Virus record (IMG/VR): IMGVR_UViG_3300029079_000067
Reading direction: 5' to 3' (one strand)
From: a virus
Lineage: Duplodnaviria; Heunggongvirae; Uroviricota; Caudoviricetes
DNA: 14,511 bases
Part shown: positions 1 through 3,083 of the stretch, piece by piece
Layout of the letters: every line of letters starts with the position of its first letter
How positions within the stretch are numbered: position 1 is the stretch's first letter
Notes under the pieces: model-generated
What the model was told of the DNA's origin: nothing
The model's database searches: none
What the model saw: only the letters and a program-made list of their open reading frames with translations
Made by a program: the position numbers and the translations under genes

Positions 1-1209
1 ATGTCGGTTTTTCATAACTGGCTGCTTGATATCGCAAGCGGGAATTACTTTATCTACATCAAACGCCTTTCTGCAAACGACACAGGCGCAACAGGTGGCC
101 ATCAGGTCGGACTTTATATCCCCTCAAATATCGTTGAAAAGCTTTTTCCATCTATCAATCATACTCGCGAACTGAACCCTTCAGTCTTCCTTACTGCGCA
201 TGTATCATCCCATGATTGCCCTGATACCCAAGCACGCGCAATTTATTACAACAACCGTTATTTTGGTAAGACCCGAAACGAAAAAAGAATTACGCGCTGG
301 GGGAGAGGAAGTCCATTACAGAACCCTGAAAATACAGGAGCCCTCACAATTCTTGCTTTCAGGTTAAACGAACAGAACACTGACTGTTCCGAGGTAGATA
401 TATGGGTCTGCGTCAATCCCGATGAAGAGGATATCATCGAGTCTGCTATTGGCGAAATCATACCTGGAACCCTAATTTCCGGCCCTGCCGGACAAATTTT
501 GGGCGGATTGTCTCTTCAGCAAACTCCAGTAAATCATAAATATGTTATTCCTGAAGACTGGAAGAAGCGTTTTCCTTCTGGAAACGAAATTATTCAATAT
601 GCTGCTGGCCATTATGCTAAAAACTCCAAGGATCCAGATGAGCAACTGATTGACCGTCGGCGTGTCGAGTATGATATTTTTCTACTCGTCGAGGAATTAC
701 ATGTTCTTGATATTATTAAGAAAGGATTCGATTCTGTAGATGAGTTTATTGCATTAGCCAACTCTGTCAGTAATCGACGTAAATCAAGGGCAGGCAAATC
801 ACTTGAACTTCACCTAGAGAAGCTTTTTATCGAGCACGGACTACGGCATTTCTCCACTCAGGCAGTTACTGAAGGTAATAAAAAACCAGATTTCCTGTTT
901 CCTTCAGCAGAGGCATATCATAACGTTGAATTTCCTGTAGAAAACTTACGTATGCTGGCAGTAAAGACCACCTGCAAAGATCGCTGGCGTCAGATACTGA
1001 ATGAAGCAGATAAAATCCATCAGGTACATTTATTTACACTGCAAGAAGGTGTTTCTTCAGCACAATACCGAGAAATGAAAGATGCGGGTGTCAGACTCGT
1101 TGTACCATCAACTTTACATAAAAAATACCCAGAAGCAGTTAGAGAAGAATTAATAACGCTCGGAGCATTCATTACTGAGCTGATAGAGCTTTACGCTGAA
1201 CTATCATAG
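1..1209 (+). CDS. ecoRIIR: Type IIE restriction endonuclease, EcoRII-like (complete)
   Basis: 402-codon ORF from ATG at position 1 to TAG at 1207-1209. Translation (MSVFHNWLLDIASGNYF...RLSANDTGATGGHQVGLYIP...) matches, from memory, the EcoRII endonuclease along its length; no identity figure computed. Convergent with a cytosine-5 methyltransferase gene, as in EcoRII. Promoter lies outside the window. Confidence 0.88.
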   Translation: MSVFHNWLLDIASGNYFIYIKRLSANDTGATGGHQVGLYIPSNIVEKLFPSINHTRELNPSVFLTAHVSSHDCPDTQARAIYYNNRYFGKTRNEKRITRWGRGSPLQNPENTGALTILAFRLNEQNTDCSEVDIWVCVNPDEEDIIESAIGEIIPGTLISGPAGQILGGLSLQQTPVNHKYVIPEDWKKRFPSGNEIIQYAAGHYAKNSKDPDEQLIDRRRVEYDIFLLVEELHVLDIIKKGFDSVDEFIALANSVSNRRKSRAGKSLELHLEKLFIEHGLRHFSTQAVTEGNKKPDFLFPSAEAYHNVEFPVENLRMLAVKTTCKDRWRQILNEADKIHQVHLFTLQEGVSSAQYREMKDAGVRLVVPSTLHKKYPEAVREELITLGAFITELIELYAELS

Positions 1210-1214
1210 GCTGA

Positions 1215-1237
1215 CTCCCGGCTTAAAAGGCCGGGAG
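1215..1237. terminator. GC-rich hairpin between the convergent R and M genes (putative bidirectional terminator)
   Basis: ctcccggc (1215-1222) / ttaaaag loop / gccgggag (1230-1237): perfect 8-bp inverted repeat in the 34-bp gap between the two stop codons. No clear T-tract on either side, so terminator function is inferred. Confidence 0.35.
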
Positions 1238-1243
1238 ATGTTC

Positions 1244-2677
1244 TCAAGGCTGCCCAGTCTTACCAGCATCAGCAGAAACAGCTTTGAGGATATAGGGTTC
1301 CAGAAGTCTGGCAACAGCTTCAAATACTGGCACCACAACTGAGTTACCGAACTGCCGATATGACTGAGTATCTGAAACCGGAATACGGAATGGTTTCCCT
1401 CCAGGTTTTTCAAATCCCATAAGGCGTGCGCACTCTCGGGGAGTCAGCCTGCGTGGTCGACGAGCCTGATTACTCTCATTCATAAAGTCAGCCTCTCCCG
1501 TTGCCATATCCCAACCACGATCAATAAGAATTTCTGATCCGTCTTTGTGATATCTGGCAGAAAGTGTGCGTGCAATGCTTTCCTTATTCTCAGGATTGAC
1601 CAACCCAAAGCCAAAACCATTCCCCTTGGCTGCATGCTTTTTGGCGTAGTTATAAAGGTACTCCCATAGTTTTGGCGTAAGTATATATTTACTGTCGACT
1701 ACAGGCTCCAGCAATTCACCAAATGATGGGCGGTGTTCCGGATAAAAACGACTGATATCACGCAAGGTAAACCCCTTGTGAATATTCAGATCTCGTCTAA
1801 ATCCGACCAGAACAATGCGTTCACGATGCTGAGGCAAAAAATGCTTCCCATCGATAATCTTTGGATCGTTTTTTCCCATTTCTGCAGCATCGGCAACTTC
1901 GTAGCCCAGCTCGTCAAGGGTCTCCATAATGACTTTGAAAGTTTTACCCTTATCATGGCTCTTCAGATTTTTGACATTTTCCAGCACAAAAATTGCCGGT
2001 TTTTTTGCTCGTATAATACGTGCCACGTCAAAAAAAAGTGTTCCTTGTGCTTCACATTCAAAACCATGCGCACGACCAAGTGAGTTTTTCTTACTAACAC
2101 CAGCAAGGCTAAATGGCTGGCACGGGAACCCCGCAAGAAGCACATCATGATCCGGCACATGCTCATCAATATATGCATAAGCATCCGTTTCCAATACATC
2201 GGTTTTATCACTCAGCGTGACTTCCCGAATATCGAGATTGAATTTATGCACCTGTTCATCGTTAAACCAGTTGGCCTTGTATGTACGCACAGCATCTTTA
2301 TTCCATTCACTGGTAAAAACACACTGGCCTCCAATGGCCTCAAAACCTTTCCGTATCCCTCCAATTCCAGCAAATAAGTCAATGAAGCGGAAAGCATATT
2401 CCGGATGGTTTGCAGGTGGTTCTGGTAGCATCTTACGCAGAAGAGACTCTTCTACTGAAGTCAACGATTTTGGTAAACACTTGCCATTAATCCAGCGGTT
2501 AATGGTTTCACGGCTCCACTCATTTTTTCCGACTTTTCTCAGTAATTCAGCCACATACTTCTGATCATAGATTTCCAGCACTTTCTCGATAAGCTTTTTA
2601 TCATTTTCCTGTCGCAGCTTTTCTTCCGCCTCGGCTTCCTTCAGCAGATGCTGTGCCAACACTTCAAATTCAGACAT
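1244..2677 (-). CDS. ecoRIIM: DNA (cytosine-5)-methyltransferase, M.EcoRII/Dcm-like
   Basis: Minus-strand ORF 1244-2719. The internal ATG at 2677 has GGAGG 4 nt upstream (plus-strand cctcc at 2682-2686), so 2677 is the preferred start (477 aa); the track start at 2719 adds 14 codons. Canonical C5-MTase motifs present: FAGIGG (motif I), GFPCQPFS (motif IV, catalytic Cys), ENV (motif VI), QHRERIV (motif VIII), RQFGNSV (motif X). Confidence 0.9.
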
Positions 2678-3083
2678 AATTCCTCCAAGGGGTCTAATGG
2701 GTGAAACTTTATCACTCATTCAACCCAGAAGGAAATGTTTTATCTGGATATTTAAACAGTGACTACAACGTAATCTAGCACTGGTGATGCTTTGTTAGGC
2801 ATAGAGAATCATTCTATATACGACTAATGACAGAAAAACAGCAGACAAGTAGTTTGTTCATAAATTAACGCATACTATGTGTCTACGGTTTTCGAGACCG
2901 GTCCAATCATCAAACGAAACATAAAATTAGCTCACATTATGAGGAAAAGTATCTTTTTTGTACTATGTAAATTCAAAGGCTTAGCCTCATTTCTCCGATG
3001 GTTTTCTCAACACTACTGGTTGTGAGCCCTTGCAATGATCATTAATATACGTCTCACAAATAATTCTTCATAGATATTGCAAA
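2678..3083. promoter_or_regulatory. AT-rich divergent intergenic region, probable promoters for the M gene (leftward) and the GIY-YIG gene (rightward)
   Basis: About 400 bp, AT-rich, non-coding, between divergently oriented genes. No promoter hexamers confidently assigned. M.EcoRII-type methylases are known to autoregulate at their own promoter. Confidence 0.3.

What the first reader, a model, noticed from the sequence alone, without database searches (positions are those of the whole stretch)
1..2719. Complete EcoRII-like type IIE restriction-modification system carried as prophage cargo
R and M are both full length, convergent and separated by a 34-bp hairpin-containing gap, the EcoRII arrangement. 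EcoRII is classically plasmid-borne; here it sits at the end of a defective prophage beside pin. An EcoRII-type enzyme is expected to recognise CCWGG, which overlaps host Dcm specificity, so the element may be tolerated by Dcm-positive hosts while restricting DNA from Dcm-negative sources.
Basis: partly seen in the sequence, partly recalled or inferred. Interest (0 to 1): 0.5.

Follow-up and report, generated by a model that had tools for sequence, protein, structure and literature searches.

The report
EcoRII-type restriction system on prophage
This is an intact, close relative of the classic EcoRII restriction-modification system (cuts unmethylated CCWGG), carried at the attachment-site end of an E. 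coli prophage next to a second, known anti-phage nuclease; it is real but ordinary.

Summary
R (1-1209, +, 402 aa) and M (1244-2677, -, 477 aa) converge on a 34-bp gap with a 10-bp-stem hairpin, as in plasmid EcoRII. The finding's end, 2719, is an upstream in-frame ATG with no ribosome-binding site. R is 87% identical to EcoRII. All 25 published catalytic and DNA-contact residues are kept. M is 91% identical to M.EcoRII (specificity region 95%) and 66% to Dcm. dN/dS is 0.05 for R and 0.03 for M.

The window is E. coli DP051 chromosome. The pair lies inside a degraded prophage at tRNA-Thr: integrase frameshifted, terminase truncated, head and tail genes deleted. It also lies inside a 43.7-kb circular phage genome and about 36 IMG/VR viral contigs. 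So "prophage cargo" is supported.

It is PD-T4-3/CMoRE, a characterised type IV nuclease that cuts hydroxymethyl-cytosine DNA. R, M and CMoRE travel together in 244 of 5426 complete E. coli genomes, on prophages with different tails and integration sites. In the circular phage the block is flanked by roughly 120-130-bp att-like repeats. It fills the pin-to-att slot where e14 carries mcrA.

DP051 keeps dcm-vsr. The Dcm-overlap idea is already established experimentally for EcoRII. Verdict: new member of a known kind, low interest.

The parts
1..1209 (+). R gene: EcoRII-type (type IIE) restriction endonuclease, 402 aa. N-terminal effector (B3-like) domain plus C-terminal PD-(D/E)XK catalytic domain.
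   Evidence: ORF. Pfam EcoRII-N and EcoRII-C. PDB 1NA6 E 1.3e-242 over residues 1-401. 87.1% identical to plasmid EcoRII, with all catalytic, recognition and base-flipping-pocket residues conserved. dN/dS 0.047 against plasmid ecoRIIR.
1210..1243 (.). 34-bp gap between the convergent R and M genes, with a hairpin at 1215-1237 (10-bp stem, 3-nt loop).
   Evidence: Sequence. Fold centroid -18.1 kcal/mol. A hairpin at the same position in plasmid EcoRII. Not a canonical intrinsic terminator: no T-run, and not flagged.
1244..2677 (-). M gene: C5-cytosine methyltransferase of the M.EcoRII/Dcm subfamily, 477 aa.
   Evidence: RefSeq WP_001288444.1 coordinates. Pfam DNA_methylase and DNA_meth_N. NCBIfam NF007772 at 927 bits against a cutoff of 710. 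90.6% identical to plasmid M.EcoRII and 66.3% to K-12 Dcm. Motifs I, IV (PCQ, Cys186), VI, VIII, IX and X present; TRD 95.2% identical to M.EcoRII; dN/dS 0.033.
2678..2760 (-). Leader and promoter region of M, conserved with the region upstream of plasmid ecoRIIM. Holds the GGAGG ribosome-binding site and the in-frame upstream ATG at 2719. Homology with plasmid EcoRII ends at about 2760.
   Evidence: Plasmid matches cover query 1-2759/2760. Pairwise alignment. Sequence. That it holds the autoregulatory operator is inferred from Som & Friedman 1993 (cited in PMC2993543) and was not tested.
3084..3857 (+). PD-T4-3 / CMoRE: single-protein type IV modification-dependent GIY-YIG nuclease that targets 5hmC and glucosyl-hmC DNA. 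It travels with R-M as one cassette.
   Evidence: PADLOC PD-T4-3 E 4.7e-140 over 1-256 of 256. PDB 9U75 (E. coli O157:H7 CMoRE) E 2.4e-171, near-identical over 257 aa. Y17/Y19/Y31 of the GIYxY-YIG motif are present in the sequence. Function from PMC12923530. Found together with R-M in 244 genomes.
3877..3915 (+). Hairpin after CMoRE. It is the remaining part of the att-like repeat that flanks the cassette. The 29-nt core (3878-3906) recurs 294 bp upstream of R, outside the window.
   Evidence: Direct repeat D4, 97% identical, in L002. One match in the window against 0 expected. Fold -20.9 kcal/mol, z -4.28. Alignment with the att-like copies in L003, L002 and mEp460.
3915..4469 (-). pinE-type serine DNA invertase of the prophage tail-fibre switch. 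Context marker for the pin-to-att cargo slot.
   Evidence: Pfam Resolvase and HTH_7. RefSeq pinE. Same pin-then-restriction-gene-then-att order as e14 pinE-mcrA-icdC in K-12.

Best explanation
**What it is.** A functional EcoRII-type (type IIE) restriction-modification pair.

**How it works.**
- M methylates C5 of the inner cytosine of CCWGG.
- R is autoinhibited by its N-terminal effector domain. It cuts unmethylated CCWGG only when further copies of the site are bound.
- *Shown here:* gene integrity, family membership, conservation of every published catalytic and base-contacting residue, and purifying selection.
- *Inferred by homology:* the specificity and the mechanism.

**Where it sits.** The pair is accessory cargo of temperate phages. 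It lies at the att-proximal end, in the order tail-fibre/pin - CMoRE - M - R - att. Together with PD-T4-3/CMoRE it forms a roughly 4.2-kb two-system defence cassette.
- EcoRII-type restriction covers DNA with ordinary cytosine.
- CMoRE covers 5hmC and glucosyl-hmC DNA of T-even phages.
- CCWGG 5mC marks self.

**How the cassette moves (inferred).** It is exchanged among mosaic prophages by recombination at the att-like and hairpin repeats on its flanks.

**Consequence of host Dcm (inferred from published EcoRII work).** The host also has Dcm. The system therefore cannot enforce its own maintenance by post-segregational killing. It can only restrict DNA that arrives unmethylated or under-methylated at CCWGG.
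For: **Family and integrity**
- Pfam EcoRII-N and EcoRII-C; DNA_methylase and DNA_meth_N.
- Full-length match to PDB 1NA6.
- 87.1% (R) and 90.6% (M) identity to the plasmid pACN001-A EcoRII pair.

**Residues** (list from PMC2770665; all identical)
- Catalytic: E271, D299, K324, E337.
- CC:GG readout: N260, K328, D329, R330.
- Flipping pocket: R222, E225, Y226, F229.
- Effector-domain readout: N28, H36, Q37, Y85, R94, E96, R98.
- Six phosphate contacts.

**Methylase.** All six C5-MTase motifs checked are present and the TRD is 95% identical to M.EcoRII.

**Selection.** dN/dS is 0.047 for R and 0.033 for M, with dS about 1.66.

**Spread.** DNA identical over window 1-3000 in all 20 listed top genomes. 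R is 99-100% identical over residues 1-402 in about 36 IMG/VR loci.

**Phage carriage**
- Inside the tRNA-Thr att repeats of the DP051 prophage (L002 16285-16348 and 40741-40804).
- Inside the circular 43,671-bp phage genome NZ_CP081794.1.
- Next to ssrA at the end of a lambda-tailed prophage.

**Cassette**
- CMoRE identified.
- 244 genomes carry at least 80% of window 1-3900.
- Att-like direct repeats flank the cassette in L003, and a hairpin repeat does so in L002.

**Dcm**
- Host dcm-vsr is intact.
- Dcm blocks EcoRII killing and restriction.
Against: - No experiment was run. Expression, methylation and cleavage are all inferred.
- R's promoter lies outside the window. The promoter scan inside the window was at background (10 found, 8.5 expected).
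- With Dcm nearly universal in E. coli, the defensive benefit against phages grown on E. coli is expected to be small. That leaves the selective reason for strong conservation of R incompletely explained.
- The att-like repeats are complete on both sides only in L003. In the window and in L001 the downstream copy is reduced to the hairpin.
- No sequenced virion in the GenBank phage collection carries this cassette.
Confidence: 0.85

Rival explanations
1. The pair acts mainly as a selfish addiction module. It stabilises the prophage by killing cells that lose it (post-segregational killing) rather than by defending against incoming DNA.
For: EcoRII does cause post-segregational killing in dcm- hosts (Takahashi et al. 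2002, via PMC2993543). The cassette persists in a heavily degraded prophage whose integrase, terminase and structural genes have decayed.
Against: The host carries intact Dcm. Dcm methylates the same site and suppresses EcoRII killing, so loss of the cassette should be harmless in this genome and in most E. coli.
Confidence: 0.1
2. R is inactive or silenced, and only the methylase matters. It would act as a second Dcm that raises CCWGG methylation, or as protection of the phage genome against EcoRII-bearing hosts and plasmids.
For: Phages commonly carry protective methylases. Host Dcm makes R dispensable for host survival. Expression was not tested, and R's promoter is outside the window.
Against: R is full length with every catalytic and DNA-contact residue intact. 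It is under strong purifying selection (dN/dS 0.047). It is 99-100% conserved over its full length across about 36 IMG/VR loci and many genomes. An unused nuclease gene would be expected to accumulate lesions, as its prophage neighbours have.
Confidence: 0.08
3. The enzyme pair has drifted to a specificity other than CCWGG, for example CCNGG as in SsoII/Ecl18kI.
For: R differs from EcoRII at 13% of positions. Related CCGG-family nucleases differ in how they discriminate the central base (PMC2577355, listed).
Against: All residues that read CC:GG and the central A:T pair in both domains are identical to EcoRII. The M target-recognition region is 95% identical to M.EcoRII. Ecl18kI and PspGI match R only weakly (E about 1e-4).
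Confidence: 0.03
4. R-M is not phage cargo. It is an independent chromosomal islet that happens to abut prophages at ssrA.
For: In ssrA-linked copies R starts 234 bp after ssrA. The cassette is bounded by att-like sequences. It occurs next to unrelated prophage types. No virion genome in GenBank carries it.
Against: In the window's own genome it lies about 650 bp inside the tRNA-Thr att repeat of a prophage at a different chromosomal site, and it carries an unrecombined ssrA-type attP with it. It also lies inside a closed 43.7-kb circular phage genome between the tail-fibre/acyltransferase genes and dinI-int. The islet origin may still be true historically, through capture by outer-att excision.
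Confidence: 0.1

Closest known systems
EcoRII restriction-modification system of enterobacterial plasmids (R.EcoRII PDB 1NA6/3HQF/3HQG; M.EcoRII)
   Same: Two-domain type IIE nuclease plus a 477-aa C5-MTase. Convergent genes with a 33-34-bp gap holding a hairpin. Conserved region upstream of M. All catalytic and DNA-contact residues identical. 87% (R) and 91% (M) amino-acid identity.
   Different: About 80% nucleotide identity only, with synonymous sites saturated (dS about 1.66), so it is an old allele and not a recent plasmid transfer. It is carried on prophages and linked to CMoRE rather than on conjugative plasmids.
Dcm-Vsr of E. coli K-12 (solitary CCWGG methyltransferase with very-short-patch repair nuclease)
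   Same: Same MTase subfamily (NF007772), 66% identity, same motifs, same expected target. Present alongside the cassette in the same host.
   Different: Dcm has no partner restriction enzyme and overlaps vsr. The cassette has R and no vsr. The N-terminal 95 residues are only 30% identical.
Burkholderia phage KL3 EcoRII-C endonuclease / Vsr / EcoRII-type methylase module (PMC3091744)
   Same: A phage-borne EcoRII-family R-M module, so there is precedent for phage carriage.
   Different: KL3 gp45 matches only the C-terminal catalytic half (residues 169-395, 39% identity) and lacks the effector-domain match. The genes are co-directional with a vsr between them. The phage is P2-like and infects Burkholderia.
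e14 cryptic prophage of K-12: pinE-mcrA-att(icd)
   Same: Related phage family: e14-named genes (ymfK, ymfL, ymfT, with ymfR and ymfQ in L003) appear in these prophages. The slot between the pin invertase and the attachment site is occupied by a restriction gene in both.
   Different: e14 carries the type IV enzyme McrA alone. Here the slot holds a different type IV enzyme (CMoRE) plus a type II R-M pair.
PD-T4-3 / CMoRE (PDB 9U75, 9U7U; PMC12923530)
   Same: The neighbouring gene 3084-3857 is a near-identical orthologue over its full length, including the GIYxY-YIG tyrosines.
   Different: Described as a single-gene system. 822 genomes carry it and only 244 have it joined to R-M; EDL933 CP-933H, for example, has CMoRE-pinE without R-M. 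I did not find the linkage to an EcoRII-type R-M mentioned in the papers I read.

Membership tests
EcoRII family, type IIE restriction endonuclease | N-terminal effector DNA-binding domain (EcoRII-N, B3-like pseudobarrel) with the residues that read CCWGG | tested here: met
   Pfam PF09217 E 3.9e-61, residues 16-163. N28, H36, Q37, Y85, R94, E96 and R98 plus six phosphate contacts are identical.
EcoRII family, type IIE restriction endonuclease | C-terminal PD-(D/E)XK catalytic domain with E271, D299, K324, E337 and the K328-D329-R330 recognition triad | tested here: met
   Pfam PF09019 E 2.4e-71 over 165 of 165 positions. All of these residues are identical, as are N260 and the pocket residues R222, E225, Y226 and F229.
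EcoRII family, type IIE restriction endonuclease | Cleaves unmethylated CCWGG and needs additional site copies as allosteric effector | not testable with these tools
   Biochemical property. Inferred only from 87% identity and conserved contact residues.
EcoRII R-M gene complex | Cognate C5-MTase of the M.EcoRII/Dcm type with the same target-recognition region | tested here: met
   90.6% identity overall and 95.2% in the TRD. Motifs I, IV (Cys186), VI, VIII, IX and X present. NF007772 at 927 bits. The actual methylated motif was not measured.
EcoRII R-M gene complex | Convergent R and M separated by a short gap containing a hairpin; conserved region upstream of M | tested here: met
   34-bp gap here against 33 bp on the plasmid. 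Hairpin conserved in position. Upstream region of M conserved to about 83 bp.
Prophage cargo (moron / accessory defence gene) | Lies within the att boundaries of an integrated phage and within the circular phage genome, yet is absent from related phages | tested here: met
   Inside the tRNA-Thr repeats. Inside circular NZ_CP081794.1. In IMG/VR contigs. Related prophages have CMoRE-pin without R-M, and mEp460 has dinI-hairpin-tfa with neither. Packaging into virions was not shown.
PD-T4-3 / CMoRE type IV restriction (neighbour gene) | [quoted passage not shown] | tested here: met
   PADLOC model covered 1-255 of 256, E 4.7e-140. PDB 9U75 aligned over 257 aa, near-identical. Y17, Y19 and Y31 present in the sequence.

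The most novel reading that the evidence does not exclude
The roughly 4.2-kb block (att-like repeat, R, M, CMoRE, att-like/hairpin repeat) is a discrete mobile defence cassette. It began as an ssrA-integrated islet and was captured into a phage genome by excision from outer att sites. It now moves between unrelated temperate phages (tRNA-Thr- and ssrA-integrating; sheathed-tail or lambda-like tails) through its flanking repeats. The type II plus type IV pairing is selected because together they cover cytosine and hmC/ghmC DNA while leaving 5mC at CCWGG as the self mark.
Probability: 0.3. Interest if true: 0.4.

Novelty: new member of a known kind. Interest (0 to 1): 0.2.

Why it matters
It matters modestly. 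The classic plasmid system EcoRII has an old, well-conserved sister allele that lives on temperate phages in about 4.5% of complete E. coli genomes. There it is physically coupled to a type IV nuclease aimed at hydroxymethyl-cytosine phages, in the same pin-to-att slot where e14 carries mcrA. That is a tidy example of phage-borne defence stacking and of cargo exchange at attachment-site repeats. It also raises a small question: why is an intact CCWGG nuclease kept under strong purifying selection in a species where Dcm already methylates that site almost universally? The enzymology, specificity and Dcm interplay are textbook, so nothing here overturns current understanding.

Tried and rejected
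- **Megablast of 1-3900 against GenBank phages:** no match. tblastn of R found only distant relatives (38-40% identity), including Burkholderia phage KL3. Carriage by sequenced virions could therefore not be shown. I relied instead on a circular 43.7-kb replicon, att boundaries and IMG/VR.
- **Chimeric 'empty-site' query** (int-dinI arm joined to the acyltransferase arm of L003) against phages: only the int-dinI half matched, and no record covered 80% or more. It did lead to mEp460, whose dinI-hairpin-tfa junction is a cassette-free arrangement. The test is weak because in integrated prophages the two arms lie at opposite ends.
- **Promoter and terminator scan of 1-4600:** counts at background (10 against 8.5, and 4 against 4.0). 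It did not flag the intergenic hairpin. I give no promoter assignment.
- **CCWGG avoidance:** 22 sites in the window against 21.5 expected, and 3 against 4.6 in the cassette. No signal, as expected in a Dcm+ host.
- **The 491-aa M (start at 2719) considered and rejected:** it has no ribosome-binding site, and M.EcoRII and RefSeq both start at the MSEFE methionine. The upstream in-frame ATG is also present in the plasmid copy, so it cannot be excluded absolutely.
- **Vsr-like repair partner for M considered and rejected:** the GIY-YIG neighbour is near-identical to CMoRE, a characterised type IV restriction enzyme.
- **NCBIfam** has no model that matches R.
- **Large protein searches, structure prediction and RNA tools** were not used, because identity to solved and characterised proteins made them unnecessary.
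Full report
**1. Observation**

The window opens exactly on the ATG of a 402-aa ORF (1..1209, +). It is followed by a convergent ORF on the minus strand whose longest form is 1244..2719, 491 aa.

- The first ORF carries the Pfam domains EcoRII-N (E 3.9e-61) and EcoRII-C (E 2.4e-71).
- The second carries DNA_methylase (E 4.7e-78) and DNA_meth_N.
- The 34-bp gap (1210-1243) contains a hairpin at 1215-1237 with a 10-bp stem (centroid -18.1 kcal/mol).
- No T-run follows the hairpin, and the terminator scan does not call it.

The plasmid EcoRII locus on pACN001-A has the same convergent layout, a 33-bp gap and a hairpin at the same position. 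The description is therefore correct, with three adjustments.

- M almost certainly starts at 2677, giving 477 aa. That is the RefSeq start and the start of the 477-aa plasmid M.EcoRII. It is preceded by GGAGG.
- R's ribosome-binding site and promoter lie just outside the window.
- Another gene lies between M and pin.

**2. Identity of R**

R matches EcoRII (PDB 1NA6) over residues 1-401 with E 1.3e-242. It is 86.3% identical to that chain and 87.1% to the plasmid copy.

I took the functional residues from the EcoRII-DNA co-crystal paper (PMC2770665) and checked every one. All are identical, at an offset of -2.

| Role | Residues (EcoRII numbering) |
|---|---|
| Active site | E271, D299, K324, E337 |
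| CC:GG readout | N260, K328, D329, R330 |
| Flipped-base pocket | R222, E225, Y226, F229 |
| Effector-domain readout | N28, H36, Q37, Y85, R94, E96, R98 |
| Phosphate contacts | Y41, R81, K92, T93, T100, R101 |

**3. Identity of M**

M is 90.6% identical to plasmid M.EcoRII and 66.3% to K-12 Dcm.

- All six conserved C5-MTase motifs checked (I, IV, VI, VIII, IX, X) are present, including PCQ with Cys186.
- The target-recognition region between motifs VIII and IX is 95.2% identical to M.EcoRII.
- NCBIfam places it in the Dcm/M.EcoRII subfamily NF007772 at 927 bits against a cutoff of 710.

CCWGG specificity for both enzymes is a strong homology inference. It was not measured.

**4. Selection and age**

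Against the plasmid genes, dN/dS is 0.047 for R and 0.033 for M, with dS about 1.66. Nucleotide identity is only about 80%. This is an old allele kept under purifying selection. It is not a recent plasmid escape and not a decaying remnant.

**5. Where it is**

The whole window matches one genome, E. coli DP051 (NZ_CP156034.1 3651189-3665723).

- There the pair lies at one end of a roughly 24-kb prophage, with the integrase next to tRNA-Thr (thrW, beside proA).
- A 64-nt copy of the tRNA 3' part (L002 16285-16348, matching 40741-40804) marks the other end, about 650 bp outside R. R-M is therefore inside the prophage.
- The prophage is defective. The integrase is frameshifted. The large terminase and a tail-fibre assembly gene are truncated and fused at about window 5237-5253. 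All head and tail genes are missing.

**6. Phage carriage elsewhere**

- The same R-M is 100% identical over window 1-3000 in Ecol_AZ146. There it starts 234 bp after ssrA, at the tail-fibre end of a lambda-tailed prophage.
- It lies inside NZ_CP081794.1, a closed 43,671-bp circle that encodes a complete temperate phage with a sheathed, baseplate-bearing tail. Its position there is between the tail-fibre/acyltransferase genes and dinI-int.
- IMG/VR holds about 36 viral contigs with R at 99-100% identity over residues 1-402, usually at a contig end.
- No GenBank virion genome carries it. The nearest phage precedent is the EcoRII-C/Vsr/methylase module of Burkholderia phage KL3.

"Prophage cargo" is supported. 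Packaging into particles was not shown.

**7.

The 257-aa gene at 3084-3857 matches the PADLOC model PD-T4-3 over its full length (E 4.7e-140). It is near-identical to the crystallised E. coli O157:H7 protein (PDB 9U75, E 2.4e-171).

That protein, renamed CMoRE, is a type IV modification-dependent GIY-YIG nuclease. It degrades 5hmC and glucosyl-hmC DNA and protects against T-even phages (PMC12923530; native-host activity in 10.1101/2024.12.20.629700). The motif tyrosines Y17, Y19 and Y31 are present.

Counts among 5426 complete E. coli genomes:

| Query | Genomes with at least 80% coverage |
|---|---|
| Window 1-3900 (R-M plus CMoRE) | 244 |
| CMoRE region alone | 822 |
| Window 1-3000 (includes plasmid EcoRII) | 379 |

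Other arrangements also occur. EDL933 CP-933H has CMoRE-pinE without R-M. CFSAN061772 has R-M without CMoRE.

K-12 e14 belongs to a related phage family, and e14-named genes appear in these prophages. It carries pinE-mcrA-att. The pin-to-att slot is therefore a recurrent site for restriction cargo.

**8. Cassette boundaries**

- Upstream of R in DP051 lies an unrecombined ssrA-type attP: a P-arm, a hairpin, the core GGTTTCAACTCCCGCCAGCTCCACCA, and a P'-arm. From the core onward it is identical to the ssrA 3' end and downstream sequence in Ecol_AZ146.
- In the circular phage the cassette is flanked by two att-like direct repeats of roughly 120-130 bp.
- In the window only the hairpin part survives downstream of CMoRE, at 3877-3915. 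Its 29-nt core is repeated at 97% identity 294 bp upstream of R. The fold gives z -4.28.
- Phage mEp460 has the same dinI-hairpin joined directly to tfa, with no cassette.

My inference is that the block was captured at an att site and is now exchanged between mosaic phages through these repeats.

**9. Dcm**

- DP051 keeps intact dcm and vsr at the native locus.
- Published work shows that Dcm suppresses host killing by EcoRII, an effect called "molecular vaccination" (Takahashi et al. 2002, via PMC2993543).
- EcoRII restricts conjugating plasmids only when they come from dcm- donors (PMC11602122).
- CCWGG is not depleted in the window: 22 sites against 21.5 expected.

It implies that here the system cannot act as an addiction module, and that it only restricts DNA that is unmethylated or under-methylated at CCWGG.

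**10. Verdict**

This is a real, intact EcoRII-type IIE R-M system and a close sister allele of the plasmid prototype. It is carried with PD-T4-3/CMoRE as a two-system defence cassette at the att end of temperate E. coli phages. It is a new member of a known kind. I found no paper describing this prophage allele or its linkage to CMoRE, but nothing about it is mechanistically unexpected. Interest is low, at 0.2.

Noticed in passing
window 3084-3857 (+): The gene between M and pin is PD-T4-3/CMoRE, a characterised type IV GIY-YIG nuclease against 5hmC and glucosyl-hmC DNA. It is linked to the EcoRII-type R-M in 244 of the 822 E. coli genomes that carry it.
   Followed up: yes
window 3877-3915; L002 16652-16780; L003 32290-32150 and 28090-27950: A hairpin plus an ssrA-3'-end-like core forms att-like direct repeats on both sides of the R-M-CMoRE block. 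An intact ssrA-type attP sits inside a prophage that is itself integrated at tRNA-Thr.
   Followed up: partly
window 9811-12211 (+): A three-gene block (238 aa with no domain; 190 aa; 363-aa MBL-fold hydrolase with weak hits to defence-associated MBL proteins) lies between the Q antiterminator and the holin, antisense to the late genes. Related prophages hold 'anti-phage protein', KAP NTPase or metallophosphoesterase genes in this slot. It is a possible second defence hotspot of unknown function.
   Followed up: partly
window ~5237-5253: A deletion junction fuses a truncated tail-fibre assembly gene to a truncated large terminase gene. All head and tail genes have been removed. Homology to other prophages resumes at 5249.
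   Followed up: partly
window 4499-5074 (+) and 3915-4469 (-): The pinE invertase sits next to a tail-collar-domain tail-fibre fragment. This is the remnant of an e14-type invertible tail-fibre switch. Inverted repeats for the switch were not searched.
   Followed up: no
L002 16995-17003 (just left of window position 1): An in-frame ATG 6 nt upstream of the annotated R start (MYMSVF...) mirrors the MFMSVF... start annotated for plasmid EcoRII. The Shine-Dalgarno spacing favours the ATG at window position 1.
   Followed up: partly
window 7450-7800 (-): An HNH endonuclease gene lies immediately upstream of the small and large terminase genes. This is the usual HNH-terminase partnership of HK97-like packaging modules, and it is ordinary.
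   Followed up: no
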